Source of the DNA: a virus
Lineage: Duplodnaviria > Caudoviricetes
DNA: 30,458 bases
Reading direction: 5' to 3' (one strand)
Virus record (IMG/VR): IMGVR_UViG_3300026302_000100
Span: 1-30,458 of that record
Position numbers and translations under genes: made by a program. Shown here in pieces: positions 3,733 through 15,799 of the stretch; positions within the stretch are counted from its first letter, which is position 1, and every line of letters begins with the position of its first letter. The notes beneath the pieces were generated by a model. It saw nothing but the letters and a program-made list of their open reading frames with translations, made no database searches and was not told the DNA's origin.

Positions 3733-5562
3733 TCAGGCCGCCTGCTTTGCCTGCACGGCTTCAATGTGGGCCACCATGGCGGCGTACATCGCCGGCAGGT
3801 CTGTCAACTTGTAGAGCTTTGCGGCACCAGTGGAGGCCTCCTGCTTGAAGCCCAGCGCGGCCAGGCCGTCTGCGGTGATGGACAGCGGGGCGATGGCGGC
3901 ATTGATGTCCCCCAGCTTCACGCGCGCGCCGGTATCGGCTGGCGGGGCAGTGGGGCGGGTCAGGGGCAGCACTTGCGCCGTCTTGATGGCAGCGCTGGCC
4001 GCCAGACTGGAACTCAGTTCATGCGCCACTTGTCCCAGTTCATCCAGCAAAGGGGTCAGGCCATCGTCCGGGTCTGCCTCTTTGATGTTGGCCTGGATCG
4101 TCTTGTTCAGCGCGGCTGCTTCGTCGGCCAGGCGCTTTGTCTCGGCCTGCTCTGCCGCCAGCTTTTCCCGCGCTTCCTTCTCGGCCTTGGCCTGTTCTTC
4201 CTTGCGGATGCGCTCGCGCTCGCGCTCGACCGCTTCCTCGGCGCGCTTCATCTCGGCCGCTTGGTGCTGGGTCACGCGGGCACGGGCCAGCATGCGCACG
4301 TCATCCGGCGACTTCCCGATGAAGGACAGGCGATCGGCAAACAGGTGCTCGAACCCCTTGGACGCTTTATCCAGGGCCGCCAGCGCTGCGCGGATGTTGC
4401 GCGCAGAGGTGTCGGCGGCGATCTTGCCCTGCGCCAGAGCCGTGTCCAGCGCGTCCTGCATGCTGGCAAAGTTGCGCTTTCCCTTGATGGCGCCGGACCA
4501 GTCGGGCGCAACCAGCACGATCCACGGACCGCCGGTGTCGGCCTTGGCGGCTTCAATGTGAGCGTCGTAGGCACGGCGCGCGGTGTCGATCATGGCCGCC
4601 TTCTTGGCCTTGTCCTCGCGCTCCACGTCCTTTTCCAGCTGCAGGGCCGTCAGGCGCATGTCCTCGCACCAGGCGTCAATCATCCGGGCGGCTTCGCCCA
4701 CGGTGACGGTCTGGGCCAGCATGGCGTCTTTGGCCAGCTTCGCGGCATCGATGTTCTCGCGCAGCAGCTTGGCCGATTCCTTGGCGTTGGAAAAGTCTTG
4801 ATCGGTCACCAGCTGGATGGCGCGGATTTGGGCCAGGCGCGCGGCCAGGGCCTCGCCGTATTCCTTCATGTTACTGGTGGTGATTTCGCCCTTGGCCTGA
4901 ATAAACAGGGCGGGCAGCGCCACGGTTACCTCGGGCTTGGGCATTTCCTTGACTTCGGCGGGCACGTAGGTTTTCAGGTCCGCATCAAACTGCTTCCAGC
5001 CCGCCAGGATTTCAGCGCGCAGGTCGGCATCGCTGGAGTACCAGCAGCGGCGTACATCGGAACCGTCCTTGGTCGCAGCCGTGAACAGCACGCGGTCACC
5101 ACCGCACACCATGAGCTGCTGCTCCATCTGCACGCGGTACATCTTGGGCAGATCGGCGGCGTCGTTGCCGTCAGGGCCAGGGGCGGGCAGGGCGGCGCGC
5201 AGCTTGTCGTTCAGGGTCTTGCATTCGTAGGCCGTGTCTTCCAGCAAGGTCAGGCCGTCGAAGCTGGCCGACAGTTCGATGTCCCCGAAGCGTTCGCAGC
5301 CCACGACCGGGTACAGCTGTTCGCCAATGACTTCCTCCGCGCCGGGCAGCTGGGCTTCTTCAATGGCGTGGCCGTCGTCAAAGCGGCGCTGCAGCTCGGC
5401 GGTGGTCTCGGGGCGGATGCCGGTGAAAGCCTCGTGCAGCAGTTCGCTGCGCGTCTTGTATTCCGAGCATCCCAGCATGGCCGGCGCATCGCTGGCGTTC
5501 TTGGAGGCTGCGCGGTGGGCGTGCCAGTTGGCATCGCCTTGGATCAGGTTCAGGGTCTTCAC
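3733..5562 (-). CDS. YqaJ/lambda-exonuclease-family recombination nuclease with long C-terminal coiled coil
   Basis: 'W...R...ASDAPAMLG', 'GHAIEE', 'ASFDGL...YECK', 'YRVQMEQQLMV' motifs; GTG start with AAGGA SD. Confidence 0.9.
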   Translation of the reverse strand: MKTLNLIQGDANWHAHRAASKNASDAPAMLGCSEYKTRSELLHEAFTGIRPETTAELQRRFDDGHAIEEAQLPGAEEVIGEQLYPVVGCERFGDIELSASFDGLTLLEDTAYECKTLNDKLRAALPAPGPDGNDAADLPKMYRVQMEQQLMVCGGDRVLFTAATKDGSDVRRCWYSSDADLRAEILAGWKQFDADLKTYVPAEVKEMPKPEVTVALPALFIQAKGEITTSNMKEYGEALAARLAQIRAIQLVTDQDFSNAKESAKLLRENIDAAKLAKDAMLAQTVTVGEAARMIDAWCEDMRLTALQLEKDVEREDKAKKAAMIDTARRAYDAHIEAAKADTGGPWIVLVAPDWSGAIKGKRNFASMQDALDTALAQGKIAADTSARNIRAALAALDKASKGFEHLFADRLSFIGKSPDDVRMLARARVTQHQAAEMKRAEEAVERERERIRKEEQAKAEKEAREKLAAEQAETKRLADEAAALNKTIQANIKEADPDDGLTPLLDELGQVAHELSSSLAASAAIKTAQVLPLTRPTAPPADTGARVKLGDINAAIAPLSITADGLAALGFKQEASTGAAKLYKLTDLPAMYAAMVAHIEAVQAKQAA

Positions 5563-5572
5563 GGTGTTCCTT

Positions 5573-6547
5573 TCAGGCGGGGTTGATTTCAGCGGCGCGG
5601 CGCTCGTACAGCGCAGTCAGTTCCTTGCGCTGCGCTTCGTCGGCCACGGTGGTGATCAGGCTGCCGGCTTCGGCCAGCTTGTCGGCGTCGGCGGCCTTGT
5701 TCAGCCGGTCGGCCACCTGGGCGTAGGTCATGACGATTTCGTCAGCGGCGGGCTTGGTCAGCGCGTTGATCTGCGCCTGCTGTGCCGGGGTCAATTCGCC
5801 CTTGGACTTGGCCAGCGCCGTGATGTCGGCAGCGGTCTTCATGCCAGCCTCGACGGCCTTCTTCCAGCGGGGGAATTGCTCGTTGAACTTGTCGTCCGGC
5901 CAGATGGGCGGGGCCTGGGGTTGGTCCGGCTGGCGGTCGTCGCCCTCGCGGCGCGTCAGGTGTTCGCGCAGCGCGGCGTCCATGTCCTCCAGGTCTTGCC
6001 CGAACATATCGCCGCAGGCCGTGACGTTGATCGTCATGGCGATCTTGGCGCGCTTGTTCGCCATCTTGAGGATGGTGTTGGCCAGGTCGGCGGGCTCGGT
6101 GCGGACCTGCTTGGTCTTGTACTTGCCCATCTTGATGCGGCGCAGGTTCTCGGGGGTCGCGTCGAATTCGTCGTCCCACGCCTTGCGCCACTTGTACTTT
6201 TCTTCGCCGCTGGACGCCTCGCCCATGCCGGTGCCCAGCACGGTGCCGCTGATCTGGTGGCTGCCTGTGCAGGTCACGCGGTAGCGCACCATGTCCGGGG
6301 TGGACAGGTCTTCGACGCTGTAGGTGTCAGACACGCGGAAAGCCATGCACAGCACTTCCGCGCCCTGCTTGTACAGCGTAGGCTTGTCGGTGCCGGGGAT
6401 CACCCCGTAGTGAACGTCCGGCTTCATGACGGCCTTCATGACCTCTTGCACCATGGCGACGTGGCTGATGATGTCGGCCACAGCCATGCGGCCCGATCCG
6501 GTCGTTGCGGCGAGTGCGCCGGGTTTGATTTCTGCAACTGCGTTCAT
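5573..6547 (-). CDS. Putative single-strand annealing protein (Rad52/Sak-like), partner of the exonuclease
   Basis: 'HYGVIPGTDKPTLYKQGAE' and 'NTILKMANKRA...FGQDLED' motifs; directly upstream of YqaJ as in Red-like pairs. Confidence 0.7.
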   Translation of the reverse strand: MNAVAEIKPGALAATTGSGRMAVADIISHVAMVQEVMKAVMKPDVHYGVIPGTDKPTLYKQGAEVLCMAFRVSDTYSVEDLSTPDMVRYRVTCTGSHQISGTVLGTGMGEASSGEEKYKWRKAWDDEFDATPENLRRIKMGKYKTKQVRTEPADLANTILKMANKRAKIAMTINVTACGDMFGQDLEDMDAALREHLTRREGDDRQPDQPQAPPIWPDDKFNEQFPRWKKAVEAGMKTAADITALAKSKGELTPAQQAQINALTKPAADEIVMTYAQVADRLNKAADADKLAEAGSLITTVADEAQRKELTALYERRAAEINPA

Positions 6548-6555
6548 GGTGTTCC

Positions 6556-6821
6556 TCAGTGGTTAAACAAAAACCCGCCGGGCCCAAAAGTGAACACGAC
6601 AGCGGAAAAGATGGCGGCGGCGATCACCGCCATGGCGATGCGTGCCCAGGTAGAGGGCTTGCGGATGTGGGGCCTTCGATGCCGAAGTCCGTGGGCTGGG
6701 GCATGGGGTCGCGTGCCGGGCGCCGGGCCGGTGCTGGCTCATGCAGGTGGGTGTCCACGGCGCGGCCGTGCTCATGCGTGACCAGGTGGGCGCTGGCTGC
6801 GGTGGGGGTGGTCTCAGGCAT
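6556..6821 (-). pseudogene. Small C-terminally anchored membrane protein gene, apparently frameshifted (or two tiny overlapping ORFs)
   Basis: ATG 6821 frame stops at 6624; the -1 frame from about 6670 gives PHIRKPSTWARIAMAVIAAAIFSAVVFTFGPGGFLFNH* ending 6556, just before the next gene's SD. Confidence 0.5.
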
Positions 6822-7887
6822 TGCGCACCTCCGGGAAGCCGTCGTGAGTCTTGCCATCCAGCAGGCGGCCGGCGGCTTTCTTGCCGACACGATCCATGAT
6901 CGCCATTGGGTACGGCGTCGCGTCACTCAACGGCACCGCGAGCGGCTTTGCTGTAGTGGCGGCGCAGTCCGCCATGGTTCGCCTGTTCGGCGCCCACTCG
7001 CCCCATTGCTTGAACAGGAATGCCACGCCAGCGGCGTCGCACTGGTTGCGCAGGCTTCGGGCCCAGTCCGGGTGCATCGGGCGTGCGCCGTGGCCGCTTT
7101 CGCCGCCAGCGATGACCCAGTGCACCATGGCGTCCGATCGCCCGCGCAAGGGACGGATAACGCCGTGGTCACCGGTAAGGGCGTCGATCTCGCACACGTC
7201 AGAGTGCACCTGGCGAAGGGTCACCAGCCCCAGCAGCGGCTCCATGCTCAGGAACCGCACCGCCGCCGGCGTGGCCAGCAGCTTGGGGATGTCGCGGTCT
7301 GCTTCCTTCTGGTTGACTACCGTGGCGCCAAGCCAGACGTTGGGCCACGGCCACGGCAGAGGGCGCCAGCCGCCCAGGCGCTCGGCTGCTACGGCGTCAG
7401 CGATCATTTCCTTCGCATTGCCGATCCGCTTCGTAAGCAGGAGCCAGTCCAGGTTCGGGGTCTGCGAAATCAAGGCGAACAGATCACGGCGCCATTGCAC
7501 CGGCACCTCGTTGTCGAACACGTCGGCCAGGCTGGCGCAGAAGACGCGGCGGCGTGCAGCCACCAGGTTGCCGCTGCAGTCGATGTTGGGACAGAGCAAG
7601 CCAGCCACGGCGCCATCGCCACGCCAGCCACACACCGGGCACGCGCAGAAGGGTTGCGCATTCCACCGCTCCGGCTGGCGCCAGTTCGCGGGTGACGTGC
7701 GCACGCGCGGTGCCCCGGCGCCCCACAGTTCGCGGCCCTGGCCACGATGCACGCGCACCGGAGTCTCATGCTCTGCATAGCAGTGATCGCAGCCACCGCC
7801 GCCCGTGTCTTCAATGGAGACCTTTGTGCAGCCCATCCAGGGGTTGAACGTGGCATCGCACCACTCGATACTGGTGTTCTCAGCCAT
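6814..7887 (-). CDS. Phage Gp37/Gp68 family (DUF5131) protein
   Basis: 'MAENTSIEWCDATFNPWMGCTKVS...GCDHCYAE', 'RRRVFCASLADVFD', 'LLLTKR', 'RFLSMEPLLG', 'WVIAGGESG', 'FKQWGEW'. Confidence 0.92.
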   Translation of the reverse strand: MAENTSIEWCDATFNPWMGCTKVSIEDTGGGGCDHCYAEHETPVRVHRGQGRELWGAGAPRVRTSPANWRQPERWNAQPFCACPVCGWRGDGAVAGLLCPNIDCSGNLVAARRRVFCASLADVFDNEVPVQWRRDLFALISQTPNLDWLLLTKRIGNAKEMIADAVAAERLGGWRPLPWPWPNVWLGATVVNQKEADRDIPKLLATPAAVRFLSMEPLLGLVTLRQVHSDVCEIDALTGDHGVIRPLRGRSDAMVHWVIAGGESGHGARPMHPDWARSLRNQCDAAGVAFLFKQWGEWAPNRRTMADCAATTAKPLAVPLSDATPYPMAIMDRVGKKAAGRLLDGKTHDGFPEVRNA

Positions 7888-8023
7888 TCGCACACCTCAC
7901 GATCAGCAGCAGAAGGCAAAGCGCCAGCCAGCCCAGCAGGGCCCAGGTCAGAGGCTCCCGCTGCCCGCGGCCCTGGTCGGTGCGGCGGCTGATGCTGTCC
8001 AGCCATTGGCGAAAGCGGTCCAT
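7880..8023 (-). CDS. Small membrane protein (47 aa)
   Basis: TGATG coupling to upstream gene; C-terminal TM helix WALLGWLALCLLLLIV. Confidence 0.6.
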   Translation of the reverse strand: MDRFRQWLDSISRRTDQGRGQREPLTWALLGWLALCLLLLIVRCANG

Positions 8024-8574
8024 CACCATGCCCCCCTGATGCCCAGCACCAGCGCGCAGCTGGTCACGTGCAGGCCCGCAGGCTGCCGCTTGCACCGCTT
8101 TTCATCGGTGATCAGGTGCAGCGTCAGCGAGTAGTGCTTGTTCAGCGCAAGCCGCGCGTCCAGTTGCGCGGCAGGCTTGACCTTGCGGGTTTCGTAGCGG
8201 CGGCCACTGACTGCGCCATTGGTGAACGGCACGCCGTCAGCCCATGCGTTGCCGGTGTAGCTGAATGACTTGTAGCCATAGGTCAGACCAGCGCCGAACC
8301 CGGCATACAGCGGCCCAGCAATGCGCCATTCAGGGTGCAGGCCGACATACAGCGTTGGGTCGCCATTCGAGTTCTTGAACGCGCCCAGGTTCGCGCTCAC
8401 CGTGCGAGAGCCTGCGAAAACAAGCGGCGTATCCCACTGCAAGACAATCCCCGGCGTGTCGTTGTTGAAGCGGTCGTTGTGCTGGAAGTGCCGCGTTGCA
8501 AGCGGAATCTCGATGGCATCCGGGGTCACTGCTATGGCGCTGGTGCAGCACAGTAGGAGGAGGGCGGCTTTCAT
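8023..8574 (-). CDS. PagP-like outer-membrane beta-barrel protein
   Basis: Start ATG 8574; signal peptide MKAALLLLCCTSAIA; amphipathic strands; C-terminal Trp; motifs IPLATRH, DRFN, AFKNS, GFGAGLT collinear with PagP. Confidence 0.7.
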   Translation of the reverse strand: MKAALLLLCCTSAIAVTPDAIEIPLATRHFQHNDRFNNDTPGIVLQWDTPLVFAGSRTVSANLGAFKNSNGDPTLYVGLHPEWRIAGPLYAGFGAGLTYGYKSFSYTGNAWADGVPFTNGAVSGRRYETRKVKPAAQLDARLALNKHYSLTLHLITDEKRCKRQPAGLHVTSCALVLGIRGAW

Positions 8575-9089
8575 GCGGCACCGCCTTGCTTGATTTGTTT
8601 CACGGTCCAATCACGCATGTACTTCCAGCGCTTGGCGGGCGCGTCGTCGTCGTTGACCAGCACGGTTTTCTTGTGCTTTCCCCAGTCGGGCCAATGGGAG
8701 CGCACGGGTCCGCAGATTTCTATGTCAATGAACTTCGTGTCGCTGATGTGTTCGTCGTTCAGGTGCATGATTTCAGCGGCCATCGCGTGCGCAATGCCAA
8801 ACCGCTGACCCACCTGATCTGCCTCGCAGTACTCAGCATCTCCAAGATCGTCCATCTTTGTGCCGCGCTTCGCACCCAGCACGCCAAGGGCGCAAAACTC
8901 GCCGTCAGCCGTGGCGAAGCTGCCGGAGAACAGGCGCTTGTCTTCCATGGCGTCCAATGCCTCCAGAAGCTCACGCAACAGGGCCTGCCCGCGCTTACCT
9001 TCAATGGAGCGCTTCACGGCCTGCCGCCAGCGCCCAAGGGCCAGCGGGTCGTCGTCGCCGTAATCGTCGGTGTATCCGCTTCGGCTCAT
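8571..9089 (-). CDS. Conserved phage hypothetical protein
   Basis: 'MSRSGYTDD...WRQAVKRSIEGKRGQALLRELLEALDAM...CALG...RWKYMRDW' recognised as a recurrent phage family. Confidence 0.8.
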   Translation of the reverse strand: MSRSGYTDDYGDDDPLALGRWRQAVKRSIEGKRGQALLRELLEALDAMEDKRLFSGSFATADGEFCALGVLGAKRGTKMDDLGDAEYCEADQVGQRFGIAHAMAAEIMHLNDEHISDTKFIDIEICGPVRSHWPDWGKHKKTVLVNDDDAPAKRWKYMRDWTVKQIKQGGAA

Positions 9090-9424
9090 CACGCACCCCC
9101 TTCCACGGCAGGGGCAGTGACGCGGTCAATGGCTGCGCGGACTGTTTCGCGGACAAACCTTGTGGACAACGTGCCGTACATTCCCCCGTCGCTGTCGTCA
9201 GCGGCATCCAAGAGCTTTTGAATGGACTCCAACATGTCAGGCGCGGCGGCGATAAGGCGGGCGTTGGCTTCGCTTTCGGCACGAAGCGTGTAGAACTCGC
9301 GGCTTTGGCTGTGCCAACTCATTTCACAAATGACGCGCTTTTCCTTGTCGCGCACCACAAAAAGCGAATCCGACTTGTTGAGGTGAAAGGCCCACGGCCC
9401 CGGCGTATGCTTCACATCGCTCAT
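9089..9424 (-). CDS. Phage protein of the 'KHTPGPW...ANARLIAAAP' family
   Basis: Both signature motifs present. Confidence 0.85.
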   Translation of the reverse strand: MSDVKHTPGPWAFHLNKSDSLFVVRDKEKRVICEMSWHSQSREFYTLRAESEANARLIAAAPDMLESIQKLLDAADDSDGGMYGTLSTRFVRETVRAAIDRVTAPAVEGGA

Positions 9425-9972
9425 ACAGACCCCTTGTGCTTGGCGAGAAGGGAAGAGGCCGCGTTGCGACCATCGTCAAGCCACTTTTGCCAAATGGCAA
9501 CACGCTCTTCTTCGCTGATGCCGCAGTCCATAGATGCGTCTTTTCCGGGGCGCAGATGTCCGGTGTCTTTGTAGAAGGCGTCCCCGAGGCGCTCAAAACG
9601 TTCGTTTGCGCCTTCGCCTTCGCGCGGGTTGAATTGCTCAAGCCACGCCAGCGCCTCGACCAGATCATCCCTCTGAGCCTTGAGAGCGGCGACCTCGGAT
9701 TTGAGGTGCCCGACAAGCTGCGACTCCATCCGTACAGCCATGAGCCCGAGTTCTTCAAGGTGCGCTGTTTCGATGCCATCGCAAGCATTCCACGCGGCCA
9801 CAAGGCGGCGGGCGAGTTCTTCAGATTCGCGCGAGGTTGCGCCGCGACAAACGGCGGCAGCGCGCAAGTCTTCATACAAGACGACCGTGGCCCAAAACGG
9901 TGATTGGCCAGACTCGTCGTGTAGTGTTGCGGCTATGCGCAACTTTTTCGAGTGTTGAGTGCTATCGCTCAT
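9421..9972 (-). CDS. Phage hypothetical protein
   Basis: 'ARRLVAAWNACDGI...QRDDLVEAL' mosaic module; coupled overlap. Confidence 0.75.
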   Translation of the reverse strand: MSDSTQHSKKLRIAATLHDESGQSPFWATVVLYEDLRAAAVCRGATSRESEELARRLVAAWNACDGIETAHLEELGLMAVRMESQLVGHLKSEVAALKAQRDDLVEALAWLEQFNPREGEGANERFERLGDAFYKDTGHLRPGKDASMDCGISEEERVAIWQKWLDDGRNAASSLLAKHKGSV

Positions 9973-9974
9973 GA

Positions 9975-10421
9975 TCAGACCCCCTGAGCCGCGCGGTGTG
10001 CCCGCTCCAGCTCGTCAGGACGGGACATCTGCGCCACGAGTGCCCAGTCGTAGCTGCGCTCAATGGCCTCGCGGTCATCACGCTGGCCGCGCGCCAGTCG
10101 TGCCGCCCGTGCTTCTTCCTCTGCGGCCATGTAGCCACGCCACGCATCGGTAAAGGCGTCTTTGTGCAGCGGTTGGGGGAAGCGGCGCGCGCCTTCTTCC
10201 TCGGTCAGCTCGACCAGGGGCCGCGCTGTCGCAACCCCGTGGAACGTGCCCAGGAAGTCAATGCCGGCGTCTTGCGCTGCTTTCAGGCTGGTGTAGCCCT
10301 CGGTCCACGTATGGCGCTGGCCGCCGCGGATCACGGTCACGACGAACTGCCGCTTTTTCGCGGGTTCCAGCTGGCCAGCAAAGCCAGCGGCTAGGGCCTT
10401 GTCGGCCGGGGTGAGGTTCAT
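9975..10421 (-). CDS. Phage hypothetical protein (148 aa)
   Basis: Continuous operon packing, ATGA overlap. Confidence 0.7.
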   Translation of the reverse strand: MNLTPADKALAAGFAGQLEPAKKRQFVVTVIRGGQRHTWTEGYTSLKAAQDAGIDFLGTFHGVATARPLVELTEEEGARRFPQPLHKDAFTDAWRGYMAAEEEARAARLARGQRDDREAIERSYDWALVAQMSRPDELERAHRAAQGV

Positions 10422-10678
10422 GCTGCACCGCCTTCTTGTTCGCTGGCGTAGGCCCGCTCAATGGCCTTGCGCACCATCTGCTCTGCGTCTTCGCCCGCAA
10501 GGTCGCGCGCCAATCCGATGAGAACAGAGCCAAAGCCGCCACACATCGCGGCGTAGGAGAAGCCATTGGACGGGTCGATGGTTCTCGCCGTCCGGGCGAT
10601 GTCGTCGATTTCGCTGGCAAGCTGTTTCACGCGAACCGTGATTTGCGTGCGGTCTTTTTGAGTGAGGTTGACGGCCAT
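10418..10678 (-). CDS. Phage hypothetical protein (about 86 aa)
   Basis: Coupled at both ends; helical protein-like composition. Confidence 0.7.
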   Translation of the reverse strand: MAVNLTQKDRTQITVRVKQLASEIDDIARTARTIDPSNGFSYAAMCGGFGSVLIGLARDLAGEDAEQMVRKAIERAYASEQEGGAA

Positions 10679-10902
10679 CACAGACCCCCAGCCCTGCGAA
10701 ACCGCGTGTCCTGCTCACGGCTCGGACCGAAGTACCAAAGGGTGCATTCCTGCACCGTGCGGGCCGCGCCTTGGGCGTCAACGGCAACAGCAGGCCGGGT
10801 GTGTACGCAGTGGTCAGCGGGCGGGTTGAAGCGGTCGGACGGCGCCGCGCAGCCTGCAGCCAGGGTGGCCAGCAGTACCGCTGCAAGGGTGGTTGAGGTC
10901 AT
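10678..10902 (-). CDS. Small lipoprotein, first gene of the PL operon
   Basis: AAGGAG SD; hydrophobic signal with lipobox LAAG-C; two further Cys. Confidence 0.7.
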   Translation of the reverse strand: MTSTTLAAVLLATLAAGCAAPSDRFNPPADHCVHTRPAVAVDAQGAARTVQECTLWYFGPSREQDTRFRRAGGL

Positions 10903-10934
10903 CTTTCTCTCCTTCGCCGTTGGTGGCGTGGAGA

Positions 10935-10977
10935 GAATTAAACATCACGTTTAATCAAATGTCAACACGGTGTTTAA
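10935..10977 (-). promoter_or_regulatory. PL promoter with operators OL1/OL2
   Basis: Minus strand TTGACA (10965-10960), 17 bp, TTTAAT (10942-10937); 17-bp operators TTAAAC-N5-GTTTAA at 10938-10954 and GTCAAC-N5-GTTTAA at 10961-10977. Confidence 0.88.
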
Positions 10978-11019
10978 ATAAAGACTGAAATCCGGCACCA
11001 GTGCAAACCCTTGGACGTG

Positions 11020-11043
11020 AAAAAGCCCGCTCGGGGCGGGCTC
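11020..11043 (-). terminator. Rho-independent terminator of the repressor operon
   Basis: Minus strand AGCCCGC-CCCGA-GCGGGCT followed by a T run. Confidence 0.85.
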
Positions 11044-11066
11044 TGGTTGTGGCGCTCTAGCCGAGC

Positions 11067-11348
11067 TTATTTGTCTTGCGGGACTGTTTCGTATCCGTGG
11101 GGAAAGACAACGCGAATTTCACCGGTCCAGCGGTTGACCATAAAAAAGACGGAACTGTCGCGATCGCCTGTTGTTACGGTTTCCCAGCGAAGCGCCCACC
11201 CCAAAGCGACCAACAGCACGACTGCCAGCACATAGGGCCAGCGGGCTCCCCTTGACTGCGATTGCGTGTCCAGTTTGTCGGCTTCCATCACCGGGGGAAA
11301 CCGAGGATTCGATCTGTTGATGAAGGGGGTTTCGTCGTCGCGTGGCAT
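11067..11348 (-). CDS. Single-pass membrane protein co-transcribed with the repressor (rex position)
   Basis: AGGAG SD, 15 nt after repressor stop; TM helix WPYVLAVVLLVALGWAL; 'NRWTGE' motif. Confidence 0.75.
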   Translation of the reverse strand: MPRDDETPFINRSNPRFPPVMEADKLDTQSQSRGARWPYVLAVVLLVALGWALRWETVTTGDRDSSVFFMVNRWTGEIRVVFPHGYETVPQDK

Positions 11349-11363
11349 TGCAGCTCCTGGGCG

Positions 11364-11930
11364 TTACTTGGGCGCCCTCTTGAAAGCGTCGTAGAGGTGT
11401 GATTCCCGCTCGCTGGGCGGTGCAGTGAATGGATCTTGGACAACGGCCAGCGGCAGGGCCTGCTGGCGTTCATTGCCGTCGCCGTACTTGGCTGATGCGC
11501 TGGCCCGGGGCTTCTCGCGTAGCGCGTGGGCGACGGCTGAAGGCTGCGCTTTCTTGGCGTGCTCCCGAATCTCGCGGGCGTACTCTGCGGCCTGGTGAAT
11601 GCTGTCAATCCACTTGGACCTCTCGCGCGGGAGCAGGTCTTCAAGGTCTATCAAGAGCTGGCGGTATTCGGGCGGCAGGCTGACGGCCGGCGATGGGGCG
11701 CCCACCGGCTTCAATGATGGCGCGGCGCCTTCTCCGGTCAGCACCCAACCGGCGACTACATCGGAAACCTGAGCCAGCTTCAGCGCGCCGCGCTGTGACA
11801 CGCCCCGCGACTCCCAGTTTTTCACTACCTGGGGCGATTCGTTCAGCCACTTCGCCACCGCCGACTGCCCGACTATCGGCGGCTTCTGCTGGGCTGCCAC
11901 TTGGTACAGACGTTCGGCTGATGGGTGCAT
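11364..11930 (-). CDS. cI: CI-like repressor (N-terminal HTH, no S24 peptidase domain)
   Basis: Start ATG 11930; HTH 'GQSAVAKWLNESPQVVKNWESRGVS...WVLTGEG'; divergent from cro across the operators. Confidence 0.85.
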   Translation of the reverse strand: MHPSAERLYQVAAQQKPPIVGQSAVAKWLNESPQVVKNWESRGVSQRGALKLAQVSDVVAGWVLTGEGAAPSLKPVGAPSPAVSLPPEYRQLLIDLEDLLPRERSKWIDSIHQAAEYAREIREHAKKAQPSAVAHALREKPRASASAKYGDGNERQQALPLAVVQDPFTAPPSERESHLYDAFKRAPK

Positions 11931-11949
11931 CCGTTCAATTTTCGGCCGA

Positions 11950-12012
11950 CTAAACACGCCGTTGTTAAACGTGGTGTTTGACATTTGTTTAAACATGACG
12001 TTTAATTCCGCC
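11950..12012 (+). promoter_or_regulatory. PR promoter and OR operators (and probable PRM on minus strand)
   Basis: TTGACA 11978-11983, 17 bp, TTTAAT 12001-12006; operators TTAAAC-N5-GTTTAA 11989-12005, TTAAAC-N5-GTTTGA 11965-11981, weak CTAAAC-N5-GTTGTT 11950-11966. Confidence 0.88.
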
Positions 12013-12222
12013 ATGGAACCTACAGAACACCCCGATTGGTTGCTGGTCGTCGCCCTTGGTGGCCCAACGAAGGTCGCTGACCTTCTCGGGCTGTCCAAGG
12101 ATGGCGGTGTGCAGCGCGTACAGAACTGGAAATTCCGCGGCATCCCCTCTGCCGTCAAGGTGGAGTGGCCGGACCTATTCATGCGGCCCGCCGCCACCCC
12201 CGAAGCAGAGCAGGGGGCCTGA
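12013..12222 (+). CDS. cro: Cro-like HTH protein
   Basis: ATG 12013; 'LGGPTKVADLLG...VQRVQNWKFRGIP...PDLF'. Confidence 0.85.
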   Translation: MEPTEHPDWLLVVALGGPTKVADLLGLSKDGGVQRVQNWKFRGIPSAVKVEWPDLFMRPAATPEAEQGA

Positions 12223-12398
12223 CATGCGCAGCACCACGAAGAAAAGGCTGGCCCTGTGCTCTGGAGTGCATCGCTCAACTGCGCGCGAATGCACCGGCCG
12301 CCTCACATTCCTGGGCGTAGCCGACACGCAGACACGCTCTCTTTGCTGTGGGGCTAAGACACCGTGTCCGGCATCAGCACGGCCATCTATCGAGCAAT

Positions 12399-12662
12399 TC
12401 AAGGCGGCGGCGGCTCCGTATGTCCATGCTGCTCCACCAGCGTTCCCAGTGATGCGCGCATCTTCGATAGTTCGTCCTCGATCAGCTGGAGGTACGAATC
12501 CGTGACGGCCTCCTGCTCGTTCACATCGCGCCATACCTCCAGGCGCATTACCGCATTGGCCGCTACCGCCTCCACGTTGGGGCTGGCTGCCACCAGCGCA
12601 AAAACAAGCATTCGCAGTGCATCGATCTGCGCCTGCAGGTTCTCGGCCTGCTCCTGTTTCAT
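12399..12662 (-). CDS. Counter-oriented small helical protein between cro and the cII-like gene
   Basis: ATG 12662 with AAGGGG SD; MKQEQAENLQAQIDALRMLVFALVAA... reads as a natural amphipathic helical protein. Confidence 0.65.
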   Translation of the reverse strand: MKQEQAENLQAQIDALRMLVFALVAASPNVEAVAANAVMRLEVWRDVNEQEAVTDSYLQLIEDELSKMRASLGTLVEQHGHTEPPPP

Positions 12663-12788
12663 GTCCGCCCCTTTCGTTGGCATTGGTCGTGTGGAAACGC
12701 CATTGTCCAACGACTGCGGGCGGGCGCCCCTTGTCTCCCCCATGGGTGAAACCACGCGCAGCGTCTCCCTCTGCGTGCTCATGGGTTT

Positions 12789-12823
12789 GCCCGCTGGCCT
12801 TTGGGCTGGTGGGCGTTTTTCTT
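12789..12823 (+). terminator. tR1-like terminator
   Basis: GCCCGCTGGCC-TTTG-GGCTGGTGGGC 11-bp stem with G-U pairs valid on the plus strand, then GTTTTTCTTT. Confidence 0.7.
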
Positions 12824-12877
12824 TGTGTGTCCATGCGCTTCATTCTTTGGCGTGCCTCTGATAACTGGTGATACCGA

Positions 12878-13387
12878 ATGAAATCCACACTTATCAACCA
12901 ACCCGAAGCGCAGCTCACTCTGGTGTTCGAGGGCGGTCTCAGCGAGAAGTACCAAAGCCTGCGCGAGTGCATCGCCGCAGGGGTTTACCGGCAGGGGCTG
13001 GGCAACATCGCCATCGACTTGAACAAAGCCCCCGGCAACCTGAGTGTGGAACTGTCCGACGACCCCACGCGGAAATTCAGCGTGGACAGCTTGGAGAAGT
13101 ACATCGAGAAGACGGGCGACACGGCTCCGATTCACTACCTGATCGACAAATTCCTGAACGAAAAGAGCCGCAAGCAAGAAGCCGCAATGGCCCAGCTTGC
13201 CCCGATTCTCCAACAGCTTGCGCCCTTGCTTCGGCAGGCCGGCTCACTGCCTGATTACCAACATGATCACCACCCGACACCGCACCATGCTGCGCGCCAT
13301 CTGCGGCCGTCCCCGGACTGCCCGCGAGTTCACCAATGCCCAGCACGACGCCCTGAGCCCGAATGCCTGCGCCAGCCACCTGAATGA
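12878..13387 (+). CDS. CII-like transcriptional regulator (true end may be 13254)
   Basis: cII position; 'QLTLVFEGGLSEKYQSLREC...IAIDLNKAPGNLSVELS...RKFSVDSLEKY'; tail after AG overlaps the next gene by 125 nt. Confidence 0.7.
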   Translation: MKSTLINQPEAQLTLVFEGGLSEKYQSLRECIAAGVYRQGLGNIAIDLNKAPGNLSVELSDDPTRKFSVDSLEKYIEKTGDTAPIHYLIDKFLNEKSRKQEAAMAQLAPILQQLAPLLRQAGSLPDYQHDHHPTPHHAARHLRPSPDCPRVHQCPARRPEPECLRQPPE

Positions 13388-13595
13388 GCTGGTCCGTGTC
13401 GGCTGGATCGAGATCAACGAAGACGGCCTCTACGAAGCCACCGAGGCCGGCCAAAAGCACAACAGCGAGCCCAGCACACCGCCGCGCACTTTCTGCAATG
13501 CGACCACCAAGGGCACCTACACGGGCCCCGCCTGGACCCTGCGCGCGGGATCTGATCGGGCTTCTTCGCTTCCTTCGCGGGGGACGGGATGCTGA
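13263..13595 (+). CDS. Winged-helix DNA-binding protein
   Basis: 'HLNELVRVGWIE...LYEATEAG' wHTH pattern; C-terminal 'RAGSDRASSLPSRG'. Confidence 0.7.
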   Translation: MITTRHRTMLRAICGRPRTAREFTNAQHDALSPNACASHLNELVRVGWIEINEDGLYEATEAGQKHNSEPSTPPRTFCNATTKGTYTGPAWTLRAGSDRASSLPSRGTGC

Positions 13596-15799
13596 GCGAT
13601 TACGACGCATTCGTGGCCCGCAAGCGCCGCGCAGAAGTTGCCACGGGCCACAAGCCCGGCGACCTGAACGAGCATCTATTTGACTTCCAGCATGCGATTG
13701 TTGAATGGGCTATCCGGCGTGGCCGCGCTGCGATCTTTGCGGACACCGGCCTTGGCAAGACCCTGATGCAGCTTTCGTGGGCTGACGAAGTGGCCGCGAA
13801 CACGGGCGGTACTGTGCTGGTGTTGGCACCGCTGGCCGTGTCTGAACAGACCATTGAGCAGGGGCGCACGTTTGGCATTGAGGTTCACCGTGTCCCCCAA
13901 GGCGGCACGCCCACCGGCCCCGGCGTGTGGATTACCAACTATGAGCGCATGGACGCCATTGACTTCACCGAGCTGCATGGGCTGGTGCTGGACGAATCAT
14001 CCATCCTGAAAGCGCATGACGGCAAGACCCGCCAGCGCATCATTGATGCAGCGCAGGGTGTGCCGTATCGCCTGTCCTGCACGGCCACGCCATCCCCCAA
14101 CGACTTCGAGGAATTGGGCAACCAGTGCGAGTTCCTGGGCGTGATGAGCCGCACGGAAATGCTGGCGACTTACTTTGTGAACGACACGGGCGACACCGGC
14201 ACATGGCGACTCAAGGGATGGGGCGCATCCAAGTTTTGGGAGTGGATGGGCACATGGGCCGTGGTGCTGCGCAACCCGCAAGACCTGGGTTTTAACGGTG
14301 CCCGCTATGAACTTCCCCCGCTGACGTATCACGAGCATGTGGTGGAAACCGAGCAGATTGGTGATGAGTTGTTTGCACGACCTGCCATGGGTCTTGCCGA
14401 GCGCCGCAAGGCCCAGCGCGACAGCGTAGAAGCCCGCTGCAAGGCATTGGCCGATGTGGTCAACGCAGAGCCCGGTGAGCCGTGGCTGATCTGGTGTCAC
14501 CTGAACGACGAGGCCGAGCGCATCACGCAACTGATACCCGGCGCTGTGAACGTGCAGGGTTCGGACTCACCGGATAGCAAGTCAAAGAACCTGCTGGGCT
14601 TTGCCCACGGCGAAATCCGCGTGCTGGTCAGCAAACCCAAGATCGCCGGGTTTGGCATGAACTGGCAGCACTGCGCACGCATGGCTTTTGTGGGGCTGGA
14701 TGACTCATTCGAGAAGTTCTACCAGGCCGTGCGCCGCTGCTATCGCTTCGGCCAAAAGCGCGAGGTTCAGGTGCATCTGTTCACCGCAGAAAACGAGGGC
14801 CAGATTTTGGCCAACCTCAAGCGCAAAGAAGTGCAGCACCACGACATGAGCGCAAACATGATCGAACACATGAAGGAAATCATGAACCACGAACTCACCG
14901 GACAGACCAACGTAGTGGACGACTACCGCGAAGACACGCACGAGGGCGACGGCTACACCATCCACCTGGGCGACTGCGTGAAGTGGGCGCGGCGAATGGC
15001 TGACAACAGCATTGATTACAGCGTGTTTTCCCCGCCGTTTGCTGACTTGTTTGTGTACAGCAACAGCGACCACGACATGGGCAACTGCAAGGACGATGCC
15101 GAGTTTGTCGCGCAGTTGAAATTCCTGATTACCGAGCTGTTCCGCGTCATCAAGCCGGGCCGCAACGTGTCATTCCACTGCATGAACCTGCCCACCACCA
15201 AGATGCGCCAAGGCTTCATTGGCCTACGTGATTTCCGGGGCGCACTCATCAAGGCGTTTGAGGAAGCCGGGTTTATATATCACTCCGAAGTGTGCATATG
15301 GAAAGACCCGGTGGTGTCAATGCAGCGCACCAAGGCGCTGGGCCTGCTGCACAAGACTATCCGCGAGAACAGCACCATGAGCCGCATGGGGCTGCCTGAC
15401 TACGTGGTGACGATGCGCAAGCCCGGCGACTGCGAAATCCGCGTAACCCATGGCGACGACCTGCCCGTTTTGATGTGGCAGAAGTACGCAAGCCCTATCT
15501 GGACGGACATTAACCAGGGCCGCACGCTGAACAAGCTGCCGGCGCGGGACGAGAACGACGAAAAGCACATGTGCCCGCTGCAGCTCGACGTGATTGAGCG
15601 GTGCATTCACCTTTGGACAAACAAGGGTGATCTGGTTTTCTCGCCGTTCGCTGGCATCGGCTCCGAGGGCTATTGCGCCGTGAAGATGGGCCGCAGGTTT
15701 GTTGGCACCGAACTCAAGCCGCAGTACTACGAGCTGGCATGCCTGAACGTCGAGGACGCGCTGAAAGAGCAGGCGGGGCTGTTTGCGGAGGCCGCATGA
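13589..15799 (+). CDS. SF2 (SNF2-like) helicase fused to an N4/N6 DNA methyltransferase
   Basis: Walker A ADTGLGKT, DESS, TAT, QAVRRCYRFGQ; then FSPPF catalytic motif and PFAGIGS SAM-binding motif (beta order). Confidence 0.9.
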   Translation: MLSDYDAFVARKRRAEVATGHKPGDLNEHLFDFQHAIVEWAIRRGRAAIFADTGLGKTLMQLSWADEVAANTGGTVLVLAPLAVSEQTIEQGRTFGIEVHRVPQGGTPTGPGVWITNYERMDAIDFTELHGLVLDESSILKAHDGKTRQRIIDAAQGVPYRLSCTATPSPNDFEELGNQCEFLGVMSRTEMLATYFVNDTGDTGTWRLKGWGASKFWEWMGTWAVVLRNPQDLGFNGARYELPPLTYHEHVVETEQIGDELFARPAMGLAERRKAQRDSVEARCKALADVVNAEPGEPWLIWCHLNDEAERITQLIPGAVNVQGSDSPDSKSKNLLGFAHGEIRVLVSKPKIAGFGMNWQHCARMAFVGLDDSFEKFYQAVRRCYRFGQKREVQVHLFTAENEGQILANLKRKEVQHHDMSANMIEHMKEIMNHELTGQTNVVDDYREDTHEGDGYTIHLGDCVKWARRMADNSIDYSVFSPPFADLFVYSNSDHDMGNCKDDAEFVAQLKFLITELFRVIKPGRNVSFHCMNLPTTKMRQGFIGLRDFRGALIKAFEEAGFIYHSEVCIWKDPVVSMQRTKALGLLHKTIRENSTMSRMGLPDYVVTMRKPGDCEIRVTHGDDLPVLMWQKYASPIWTDINQGRTLNKLPARDENDEKHMCPLQLDVIERCIHLWTNKGDLVFSPFAGIGSEGYCAVKMGRRFVGTELKPQYYELACLNVEDALKEQAGLFAEAA

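What the first reader, a model, noticed from the sequence alone, without database searches (positions are those of the whole stretch)
8023..8574. Phage-encoded PagP-like outer-membrane barrel in the early-left operon
Seen: signal peptide, alternating beta-strand pattern, C-terminal aromatic residue and a Cys pair near the C-terminus. By eye it is collinear with E. coli PagP as I recall it: IEIPLATRH ~ LYIPAITWH, DRFNNDTPG ~ DRYNERPWG, AFKNS ~ AFKDS, YAGFGAGLT ~ LGFTAGVT. PagP's catalytic His and Ser positions are kept but Asp is Asn. Known: PagP palmitoylates lipid A. Inference: the phage may remodel lipid A or another OM lipid, or use the barrel for superinfection exclusion. Unusually, it sits co-oriented and translationally coupled within the repressor-controlled PL operon, so it would be expressed early in lytic growth rather than as a lysogenic moron.
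Basis: partly seen in the sequence, partly recalled or inferred. Interest (0 to 1): 0.75.

Follow-up and report, generated by a model that had tools for sequence, protein, structure and literature searches.

The report
Divergent phage PagP-like outer-membrane barrel
A prophage carries, in what is predicted to be its repressor-controlled early operon, a gene for a small exported protein that is a distant relative of the lipid A palmitoyltransferase PagP and likely edits outer-membrane lipids during phage growth; PagP-like genes are already annotated in other phages, so this is a new variant, not a new kind.

Summary
Window 8023-8574 (minus strand) is a 183-aa ORF with a signal peptide, a terminal Trp and an invariant Cys161/Cys173 pair. 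AlphaFold2 gives a confident 8-stranded barrel (pLDDT 85.6).

Pfam, NCBIfam and PDB sequence searches find nothing. Profile-profile comparison does link the family to PagP: 95.8% probability, score 56.9, against at most 18.4 in 100 shuffles and 16.6 for PagL. The link is supported over the N-terminal half. His29 and Ser69 align with PagP His33 and Ser77. Asp76 is replaced by Asn68 in all 19 aligned family members.

The gene is the seventh in a chain of overlapping genes. The chain sits behind a predicted PL promoter whose operators also occur at PR. Relatives in metagenomes keep this position upstream of RecT/RecE-type genes.

PagP-like genes are already annotated in 17-18 Burkholderia and Ralstonia phage records, including the early regions of virulent phages. 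Early placement is therefore not unique. In the passages I read, these genes are discussed only as predictions. This scan has also met phage PagP-like barrels on other DNA.

Verdict: a real, selected gene (dN/dS 0.15-0.40) and a new Asn-variant branch of phage PagP-like barrels. Its activity is untested.

The parts
8023..8574 (-). PagP-like outer-membrane barrel gene (183 aa; predicted mature protein about 168 aa)
   Evidence: ORF and translation. Homologues. phrog_3600 at E 5.1e-6. hhalign to PagP at 95.8%. 8-stranded barrel model.
8530..8574 (-). Codons of the predicted Sec signal peptide (residues 1-15, cleavage after AIA)
   Evidence: Read from the sequence. Helix 2-12 in the model. Homologues carry different signal peptides ending ARA/AHA in front of the same mature start, PDAVE. 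No signal-peptide predictor was run.
8488..8490 (-). His29 codon, aligned with PagP catalytic His33
   Evidence: Invariant in 19 of 19 sequences of alignment A2. hhalign register. Lies at the outer end of strand A.
8368..8373 (-). Asn68-Ser69 codons, aligned with PagP Asp76-Ser77
   Evidence: Both invariant in 19 of 19 sequences. hhalign register. Lie at the outer end of strand C.
8056..8094 (-). Cys161 to Cys173 segment: predicted disulfide-bonded last outer loop
   Evidence: Both Cys are invariant in 16 of 16 close homologues. The loop between strands 148-156 and 174-182 has the lowest pLDDT block, 58. The disulfide is inferred.
8571..9092 (-). Upstream gene (173 aa, phrog_25637, unknown function); its stop overlaps the PagP-like start (ATGA)
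7880..8029 (-). 49-aa single-pass membrane ORF; its ATG overlaps the PagP-like stop
   Evidence: Most listed relatives begin the next ORF with MVMA at the same junction; two begin further upstream and carry MVMA inside.
6814..7893 (-). DUF5131 gene (phrog_2045)
   Evidence: PF07505 at 295.9 bits. The second prophage of the same genome also has a barrel paralogue directly upstream of a DUF5131 gene.
3733..6547 (-). Recombination genes: RecT-position gene (5573-6547, phrog_10048) and RecE-like exonuclease (3733-5562)
10678..10902 (-). First gene of the leftward operon: 74-aa predicted lipoprotein (LAAGC lipobox)
   Evidence: The lipobox was read by eye.
10935..10982 (-). Predicted PL. The -35 TTGACA is at 10965-10960 and the -10 TTTAAT at 10942-10937, with TTAAAC-N5-GTTTAA operator half-site pairs
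   Evidence: A 31-nt stretch is 90% identical to its counterpart at PR, 11978-12008. Function is inferred.
11020..11041 (-). Predicted intrinsic terminator closing the repressor operon, just upstream of PL
   Evidence: Stem-loop plus T run read. RNA-library contigs of three runs stop at 11043-11045 with no loose end there. This is a weak hint.
11067..11996 (-). Immunity operon: repressor-like HTH gene (11364 to about 11984/11996; start uncertain and inside OR) and a 93-aa membrane protein gene (11067-11348)
   Evidence: phrog_4 and phrog_18068. Sequence. RNA-library contigs span 11043-11981.

Best explanation
The gene encodes a distant member of the PagP superfamily that is predicted to fold as an 8-stranded outer-membrane barrel and likely acts as a lipid-modifying enzyme on the outer leaflet, most probably transferring or removing an acyl chain on lipid A or a neighbouring lipid.

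Shown here:
- The ORF exists and is under purifying selection.
- Its family is homologous to cellular and phage PagP-like proteins.
- His29, Asn68 and Ser69 are invariant across the family down to 24% identity.
- The gene is chained by overlapping stops and starts to its neighbours.

Inferred:
- Export by Sec, with cleavage after AIA.
- A Cys161-Cys173 disulfide in the last outer loop.
- Insertion by BAM through the terminal ...RGAW.
- His29 and Asn68/Ser69 at the outer ends of strands A and C. These are the topologically equivalent positions to PagP His33 and Asp76/Ser77, next to the lipid A layer.
- Transcription from PL after the repressor is lost, so the protein would appear early in lytic growth.

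The biological pay-off is the least certain step. My guess is a change to the cell surface during infection that hinders superinfection or re-adsorption of progeny, or that stabilises the envelope until lysis.
For: Homology:
- phrog_3600 (annotated PagP) is matched by the query at E 5.1e-6 and by E. coli PagP at E 1.3e-6, on overlapping profile positions (query 176-263, PagP 178-309).
- hhalign of the family alignment against 12 PagP sequences gives 96.7%. Without signal peptides it gives 95.8%, E 7.5e-9, score 56.9.
- Controls: 100 column shuffles reach at most 18.4, the reversed alignment 19.9, and a PagL alignment 16.6 at 0.7%.
- hhalign against 6 phage PagP-like proteins gives 94.2%, E 1.1e-7; the relaxed alignment (-mact 0.05) runs end to end, though confidence falls in the C-terminal part.
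- The ESM Atlas first hit is a cluster in which 49% of members carry PF07017 (score 0.96, 198 of 256 features).

Fold: pLDDT 85.6 with 8 strands. All top structural matches are 8-stranded outer-membrane barrels.

Site: H29, N68 and S69 are among only 7 invariant columns of the 19-sequence alignment. PMC5740924 (figure legend read) names H33, D76 and S77 as the residues important for PagP function. A Pfam-passing PagP homologue with FKNS exists (L013, 25.5 bits), so Asn occurs naturally at this position.

Selection: dN/dS of 0.15-0.40 in 15 of 15 pairs.

Operon: overlaps or 2-nt gaps join every gene from 10902 down to 6814. PL and PR share operators. The gene holds the same operon position in metagenome loci L031, L034, L036 and L041.
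Against: - No hit to Pfam PagP or to any Pfam or NCBIfam model at E up to 10.
- No PagP among PDB sequence matches, with either the single sequence or the profile.
- hhalign of the family against single sequences is weak: E. coli PagP 0.41% and E 0.15; BcepIL02 gp22 9.2%.
- The significant alignment to cellular PagP covers only the N-terminal 73-96 columns. The C-terminal half is remodelled.
- The Asp of the PagP triplet is not kept.
- The N-terminal amphipathic helix of E. coli PagP is absent.
- I could not open the model's coordinates. The His-Ser distance and any interior acyl pocket are therefore untested.
- No activity, localisation or expression timing has been measured.
Confidence: 0.5

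Rival explanations
1. The barrel is not an enzyme. It is a PagP-derived scaffold that the phage places in the outer membrane to mask a receptor, exclude other phages or bind something, as lambda Lom or Ail-type barrels do. Its conserved residues would serve binding or folding.
For: The closest structural matches are non-enzymatic barrels: Ail, OmpA, OprF and OmpX. The Asp of the PagP triplet is lost. The long strand E/F hairpin (89-105, 122-143) and the disulfide loop look like exposed surface features. The first gene of the same operon is a predicted lipoprotein, another envelope protein.
Against: His29, Asn68 and Ser69 stay invariant in relatives that share only 24-32% identity and have lost the Cys161/Cys173 loop. 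That pattern is what an active site looks like. No Pfam Ail/Lom or OmpA-type hit appears.
Confidence: 0.2
2. It is an outer-membrane lipid hydrolase or an acyltransferase with another substrate, for example a lipid A deacylase, a phospholipase, or an acylator of phosphatidylglycerol. It would not be a lipid A palmitoyltransferase.
Against: There is no sequence relation to PagL (0.7%; no Pfam PF09411 hit). The host already has a chromosomal PagL (G000:C10:89075-89476, 102.9 bits). Nothing here separates transfer from hydrolysis.
Confidence: 0.2
3. The gene works as a lysogenic-conversion gene. It would be expressed in the lysogen from an internal or read-through promoter, changing the host's envelope for the host's benefit (for example resistance to cationic peptides). 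This is how papers usually read phage PagP-like genes.
For: PMC10269572 (passages read) lists the CSP3 PagP-like orf72 among moron genes. bioRxiv 10.64898/2026.09.21.753358 (passages read) proposes a lysogeny role for Vibrio phage PagP homologues. An RNA-library contig (run X6, 8434-8688, depth 2.6) crosses the gene's 5' junction.
Against: There is no intergenic space, promoter-like site or terminator around the gene. Its GC content matches its neighbours. It lies downstream of a predicted terminator and of PL with repressor operators. Virulent phages also carry PagP-like genes in early regions. The same RNA libraries hold low-depth contigs over late genes as well, so that contig does not show lysogenic expression.
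Confidence: 0.2
4. The link to PagP is spurious. The protein is an unrelated small barrel whose motifs resemble PagP by chance or by convergence.
For: Curated models and PDB sequence searches are blank. Structure does not favour PagP.
Against: The profile-profile score of 56.9 is three times the best of 100 shuffles. The match is specific against PagL. Three routes agree: PHROG bridging, cellular PagP and phage PagP-likes. All place the same His and Ser in register.
Confidence: 0.05

Closest known systems
E. coli/Salmonella PagP (CrcA), phospholipid:lipid A palmitoyltransferase; Pfam PF07017; PDB 1THQ, 3GP6, 1MM4
   Same: Small 8-stranded outer-membrane barrel. The N-terminal half is homologous (hhalign 95.8%). 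His and Ser align at the outer ends of strands A and C. Pro24 aligns with PagP Pro28. It ends in an aromatic residue.
Phage PagP-like proteins (phrog_3600): Burkholderia phages BcepIL02 gp22, DC1, CSP3 orf72; Ralstonia phages Gerry, phiAp1 gp11, RSP15, RSL1, YO103_7
   Same: Phage-encoded, signal peptide followed directly by the barrel, no N-terminal helix. hhalign gives 94.2% (end-to-end only in the relaxed alignment). They are placed in early or replication-side modules. In the passages I read (PMC10269572, PMC9144972) they are discussed only as predictions.
   Different: Those proteins are 137-166 aa, and 5 of the 6 I aligned keep Asp-Ser (K/R-D-S). The query has no tblastn match in 50,697 phage records. 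It is longer, has Asn-Ser and has the extra disulfide loop.
PagL, lipid A 3-O-deacylase (PF09411; PDB 2ERV)
   Different: No sequence relation (hhalign 0.7%; no Pfam hit). The PagL H-x-S-N motif near the C-terminus, seen in my 12 PagL sequences, has no counterpart conserved in the family. The host has its own PagL.
Lambda Lom / Ail / OmpX family of phage and bacterial 8-stranded barrels
   Same: Phage-borne small outer-membrane barrel. Ail is the top Foldseek match (E 1.2e-4).
   Different: No Pfam hit. Lom is a late-operon moron expressed in lysogens (recalled), whereas this gene is inside the early-left operon. A conserved His/Asn/Ser site is not a feature of that family (recalled).

Membership tests
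PagP (Pfam PF07017) | Scores over the curated Pfam cut-off (24 bits) | tested here: not met
   No Pfam family at E up to 10. None of the 9 representatives scanned hits PF07017 at E up to 1.
PagP (Pfam PF07017) | Detectable common ancestry with PagP by profile comparison | tested here: met
   hhalign 95.8-96.7%, E 7.5e-9 to 4e-10. Shuffles reach at most 18.4 against 56.9. PagL control 0.7%. Against single sequences the signal is weak.
PagP (Pfam PF07017) | 8-stranded antiparallel outer-membrane beta-barrel | tested here: met
PagP (Pfam PF07017) | Catalytic His33 and Ser77 | tested here: met
   His29 and Ser69 align with them and are invariant in 19 of 19 sequences.
PagP (Pfam PF07017) | Asp76 next to the Ser | tested here: not met
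   Asn68 in 19 of 19 sequences. One Pfam-passing homologue (L013) also has Asn.
PagP (Pfam PF07017) | N-terminal amphipathic helix of the mature protein | tested here: not met
   The mature chain starts about 4 residues before strand A. The helix is also missing from short homologues that pass the Pfam cut-off (L005-L012).
PagP (Pfam PF07017) | Interior acyl-chain pocket (hydrocarbon ruler, Gly88 floor) and lateral lipid gates | tested here: inconclusive
   hhalign puts His80 opposite Gly88 and Pro24 opposite Pro28. The roles of these PagP residues are recalled, not read here.
PagP (Pfam PF07017) | Palmitate transfer from a phospholipid to lipid A | not testable with these tools
   Needs lipid A mass spectrometry.
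Phage PagP-like proteins (phrog_3600) | Match to the PHROG profile | tested here: met
   E 5.1e-6, 26.8 bits, but only residues 9-103. Of 11 relatives scanned, 9 match at E up to 1 and 7 at E below 1e-5.
PagL (PF09411) | Sequence match and the His-Ser-Glu site near the C-terminus | tested here: not met
   No Pfam hit. hhalign 0.7%. His153, His169 and Ser172 are conserved only in the close clade.
Lambdoid early-left (PL) operon | Leftward gene chain behind a promoter whose operators recur at PR, beside divergent repressor and cro-like genes, and holding the recombination genes | tested here: met
   A 31-nt stretch, 90% identical, carries TTGACA and TTAAAC-N5-GTTTAA at both sites. Repressor-like and cro-like ORFs. 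RecE-like and RecT-position genes. Repressor binding itself is inferred.

The most novel reading that the evidence does not exclude
Phages of Burkholderiales-type hosts, virulent and temperate alike, make their own PagP-derived outer-membrane enzymes early in infection in order to rewrite the host's lipid A layer for the phage's own benefit: shutting the door on rivals and on their own progeny, or bracing the envelope until lysis. On this reading the Asn-for-Asp branch found here has a different chemistry or acyl-chain length from PagP. That would make lipid A editing a lytic-cycle function, not a lysogenic-conversion trait.
Probability: 0.2. Interest if true: 0.7.

Novelty: new variant of a known kind. 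Interest (0 to 1): 0.4.

Why it matters
Phage PagP-like genes are usually written off as virulence morons that help the lysogen resist antimicrobial peptides. In the passages I read they are discussed only as predictions.

This gene differs in three ways. It is hard-wired into a repressor-controlled early operon. It belongs to a branch that curated models miss. It keeps an invariant His/Asn/Ser site.

If it is active, two things follow. Phages would remodel lipid A during lytic growth. And the PagP scaffold would tolerate an Asn at the Asp position, which bears on the still unsettled PagP mechanism.

It is also a practical annotation point. The family has only 10 representatives among 1.84 billion clusters and currently reads 'hypothetical protein'.

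Tried and rejected
Sequence and family searches that gave nothing useful:
- Pfam and NCBIfam scans of the protein: nothing.
- PDB sequence searches with the protein and with the profile: only chance-level hits such as TodX and ribosomal protein L31.
- hhalign of the family against single sequences of E. coli PagP (0.41%) and BcepIL02 gp22 (9.2%): too weak to use alone.
- Searching the window's own genome with phrog_3600 found nothing, not even this gene, so that search is insensitive.
- With the close alignment, no relative turned up in 185,579 species genomes and only one, an internally deleted copy, in IMG/VR.
- tblastn of the query and of distant relative P0040 against 50,697 phage records: no match.

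PagL reading: rejected on sequence.

RNA evidence for timing:
- In four metatranscriptome runs, kept as contigs only, the bins over 7536-8669 have little or no cover.
- Low-depth contigs also lie over late genes.
- Contigs cannot rank genes, and DNA carry-over is possible. This neither shows silence in lysogens nor expression.

Other:
- The sigma-70 scan found no promoter-like site in 6500-13700. It also missed the PL and PR sites that I read by eye, because their -10 is TTTAAT.
- No notes of this scan exist for this genome or for this sequence.
- Literature: four searches found annotations only and no assay in the passages I read. They were PagP+prophage+lipid A; PagP+phage+Ralstonia; lipid A palmitoyltransferase+phage-encoded; and PagP-like+phage. 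Subscription papers, for example the original BcepIL02 and DC1 genome papers, were not seen.
Full report
WHAT IS THERE

The minus strand of window 8023-8574 holds a 183-codon ORF.

- Its ATG overlaps the stop of the upstream 173-aa ORF as ATGA at 8571-8574.
- Its TGA (8023-8025) lies inside the start of a 49-aa membrane ORF whose ATG is at 8029-8027.
- The product starts with a typical export signal (MK, hydrophobic run, AIA|VT; read by eye) and ends in Trp.
- The search for homologous proteins returned 29 relatives at 63-90% identity among 249 candidates. None has a Pfam domain or a name other than 'hypothetical protein'.
- In an alignment of 16 of them the mature part is gap-free. Cys161 and Cys173 are invariant, and the last residue is always W or F. 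Only the signal peptides differ.
- Pairwise dN/dS over the mature part is 0.15-0.40 in all 15 pairs of six equal-length genes. L035 was left out for length.

This is a real gene under purifying selection.

HOW RARE IT IS

- An exhaustive profile search of 1.84 billion cluster representatives found only 10 proteins at E up to 0.001 (6 at 1e-10, 1 at 1e-30).
- No relative appeared in one genome each of 185,579 species.
- IMG/VR gave one copy, and it is internally deleted (the same deletion is seen in P0032).
- There are none in 50,697 deposited phage records.
- Sixteen metagenome loci hold it, one of them identical to the window.
- A profile search of 301 genomes of the host's family gave 25 genomes with matches. 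Nearly all are weak and partial (E 1e-4 to 1e-5). The own genome gave two.

IS IT PagP-LIKE? SEQUENCE EVIDENCE

Curated resources say no. Pfam and NCBIfam give no family at E up to 10. PDB sequence searches give only chance-level rows.

PHROGs gives one hit: phrog_3600, annotated PagP, at E 5.1e-6 over residues 9-103. To see whether that label is earned I took pagP from E. coli K-12. It hits the same PHROG at E 1.3e-6 on overlapping profile positions (query 176-263, PagP 178-309). Of 11 relatives scanned, 9 hit phrog_3600 at E up to 1, the best at 5.8e-16.

I then built a PagP alignment from 11 Pfam-passing genes found in 301 genomes of the host's class, plus E. coli PagP (L014 dropped as a duplicate).

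- hhalign of my 19-sequence family alignment (A2) against it gives 96.7% and E 4e-10.
- With signal peptides removed it gives 95.8%, E 7.5e-9 and score 56.9 over 73 columns.
- Controls: 100 column-shuffled PagP alignments score at most 18.4, and the reversed alignment 19.9.
- A 12-sequence PagL alignment (L051 from an unpublished genome and L059 left out) scores 16.6 at 0.7%.
- Against six phage PagP-like proteins the family scores 94.2% and E 1.1e-7; the relaxed alignment (-mact 0.05) runs end to end, with low confidence in the C-terminal part.
- The ESM Atlas first hit (0.96, 198 of 256 features) is a cluster where 49% of members carry PF07017. PagL clusters appear lower, at 0.95.

Against this, the family profile compared with single sequences is weak: 0.41% for E. 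coli PagP and 9.2% for BcepIL02 gp22. The significant alignment to cellular PagP stops after the fifth strand.

THE SITE

In the hhalign register:
- IEIPLATRH pairs with LYIPAITWH, so His29 aligns with His33 and Pro24 with Pro28.
- AFKNS pairs with AFKDS, so Asn68 aligns with Asp76 and Ser69 with Ser77.

PMC5740924 (figure legend read) names H33, D76 and S77 as the conserved residues important for PagP function.

In A2, whose members fall to 24-32% identity, only seven columns are invariant: P18, H29, W47, N68, S69, G92 and G96. Asn is not unheard of at this position: one Pfam-passing homologue (L013, 25.5 bits) also reads FKNS. Five of the six phage PagP-likes I aligned keep Asp-Ser.

hhalign also places His80 (Ser/Thr in distant relatives) opposite PagP Gly88. 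I recall Gly88 as the floor of the acyl-chain ruler. If a pocket exists here it should be shallower, but that is speculation.

FOLD

AlphaFold2 on A2 gives pLDDT 85.6 and pTM 0.76, with eight membrane strands. A long hairpin is formed by strands 89-105 and 122-143. The lowest-confidence stretches are the signal peptide (block 1-10, pLDDT 57) and block 161-170 (pLDDT 58) in the loop between Cys161 and Cys173.

By the usual topology (termini in the periplasm; inferred), His29 and Asn68/Ser69 sit at the outer ends of strands A and C, as in PagP.

- Foldseek against the PDB returns 8-stranded outer-membrane barrels: Ail E 1.2e-4, OprF, OmpA. PagP 3GP6 ranks ninth (E 1.4e-3) with 16% identity, the highest among the rows listed.

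Structure does not single out PagP. The second test (His and Ser juxtaposed) could not be run, because I had no access to the coordinates.

CONTEXT

The window is a lambdoid prophage inside a 4.36-Mb genome.

Leftward genes:
- repressor-like gene
- a 93-aa membrane protein gene
- a gap
- a 74-aa predicted lipoprotein
- five small genes
- the PagP-like gene
- the 49-aa membrane ORF
- DUF5131
- a RecT-position gene
- a RecE-like exonuclease

Rightward genes:
- cro-like ORF
- helicase-methylase
- DUF1376 replication protein
- DnaB
- RusA

TerL further on is 60% identical to that of Xylella phage Xfas53.

A 31-nt stretch at 10935-10965 is 90% identical, in inverted orientation, to 11978-12008. Each copy carries TTGACA, a 17-nt spacer, TTTAAT, and TTAAAC-N5-GTTTAA palindromes. 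These read as PL and PR with shared operators.

A stem-loop plus T run at 11041-11020 closes the repressor operon just upstream of PL. From 10902 down to 6814 every gene junction is an overlap or a 2-nt gap. The 'repressor-controlled early-left operon' reading is therefore well founded, though repressor binding and timing remain inferred.

In metagenome relatives the gene keeps this place between homologues of the upstream small genes and RecT/RecE-type genes (L031, L034, L036, L041). Its neighbours are swapped mosaic-fashion: a pentapeptide-repeat protein, and a protein I read by eye as PAPS-reductase-like. The stop/start junction with the next ORF (MVMA...) is conserved; in two listed loci that ORF starts further upstream and carries MVMA inside.

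The same genome holds a second, distant copy (G000:C16, L027:5615-6253, E 1.2e-10). It also lies directly upstream of a small membrane ORF and a DUF5131 gene. Its Asn-Ser reads Ser-Asn and its C-terminus is atypical.

The host has a chromosomal PagL (102.9 bits) and no Pfam PagP. PF07017 was found in 11 of 301 genomes searched in its class.

RNA LIBRARIES

Four wastewater metatranscriptome runs, kept as contigs, hold parts of the prophage.

- Contigs covering 11043/11045 to 11910-12056 (repressor plus the 93-aa gene) carry the highest per-contig depth figures listed: 31.2, 18.3, 13.1 and 10.4.
- Three of these contigs stop at 11043-11045 with no loose end, next to the predicted terminator. This is a weak hint of a lysogen-type transcript.
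- One 255-nt contig (X6, 8434-8688, depth 2.6) bridges the junction of the upstream gene and the PagP-like gene.
- Low-depth contigs also lie over late genes.

Nothing firm follows for this gene.

WHAT IS KNOWN

Phage PagP-like genes are an annotated kind.
- tblastn with BcepIL02 gp22 finds 17 phage records, and with the YO103_7 protein 18. All are Burkholderia or Ralstonia phages, of podovirus, T7-like, Ackermannviridae and jumbo types.
- BcepIL02 gp22 follows the DnaC-like gene.
- phiAp1 gp11 sits in the early region of a T7-like virulent phage.
- PMC9144972 and PMC10269572 (passages read) call them a PagP-like virulence factor or moron.
- A 2026 preprint (10.64898/2026.09.21.753358, passages read) reports homologues in Vibrio phages and says activity is hypothetical.
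- Two earlier notes of this scan (e1-5391037, e1-5796425) describe phage PagP-like barrels on other DNA, one behind an early promoter of a virulent phage. I did not check those notes.

VERDICT

The protein fails curated membership and lacks Asp76 and the N-terminal helix. I therefore file it as a new Asn-variant branch of the phage PagP-like barrels, not as a PagP.

The mechanism I commit to is an outer-leaflet lipid-modifying enzyme made early after derepression, at confidence 0.5. Rivals are a non-catalytic surface barrel (0.2), a hydrolase or other-substrate enzyme (0.2), expression in the lysogen (0.2, a question of timing) and spurious homology (0.05).

Noticed in passing
window 10935-10982 and 11951-12008: Twin promoters with shared operators. 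A 31-nt stretch (TTGACA, 17-nt spacer, TTTAAT, with TTAAAC-N5-GTTTAA palindromes) recurs in inverted orientation at the predicted PL and PR. The cro-like ATG (12013) lies about 7 nt after the -10, and the repressor's candidate ATGs (11996, 11984) lie inside OR. Both may therefore be leaderless mRNAs.
   Followed up: partly
window 11067-11348 (-): A 93-aa membrane protein gene sits 16 nt downstream of the repressor gene and before a terminator. RNA-library contigs in four runs span both genes. It is a candidate lysogen-expressed exclusion or abortive-infection gene in the rexB/sieB position.
   Followed up: partly
window 10678-10902 (-): The first gene behind the predicted PL encodes a 74-aa protein with a lipoprotein signal (LAAGC). 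It is a second envelope-targeted product of the same early operon. Homologues at 87-89% identity occur in L034 and L036.
   Followed up: no
L027:5615-7612 (G000:C16:110614-112611): A second prophage-like region of the same genome repeats the arrangement: distant barrel paralogue (212 aa, Ser-Asn instead of Asn-Ser, no terminal aromatic), small membrane ORF, then a DUF5131 gene 61% identical to the window's.
   Followed up: partly
L001:1287-1451 and protein P0032: An in-frame internal deletion form of the gene. Residues 18-44 are joined to 154-183, giving 83 aa. It occurs in an IMG/VR contig and as a cluster representative, so some relatives have lost the barrel.
   Followed up: no
proteins P0036, P0037: Distant relatives of 263-264 aa carry an N-terminal DUF2279-like (predicted periplasmic lipoprotein) domain fused to the barrel. 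It scores 22.2 and 23.9 bits, below the 28.6 cut-off, but also matches phrog_26616 'lipoprotein' at E about 1e-9.
   Followed up: no
window 13589-15799 (+): A 736-aa fusion of an SNF2/DEAD-type helicase with an N6/N4 DNA methylase domain heads the rightward replication genes.
   Followed up: no
G000:C10:89075-89476: The host chromosome encodes a PagL-type lipid A deacylase (102.9 bits) but no Pfam PagP. The prophage barrel would therefore be the genome's only PagP-related gene, apart from the decayed paralogue.
   Followed up: partly
window 18068 / 21244: In all four RNA-library runs one contig joins 18068 to 21244 with 46 other letters between. Only 21 letters fit on the shorter side, which is below the level the tool trusts. 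It is probably a related phage or repeat, not a splice or deletion.
   Followed up: no
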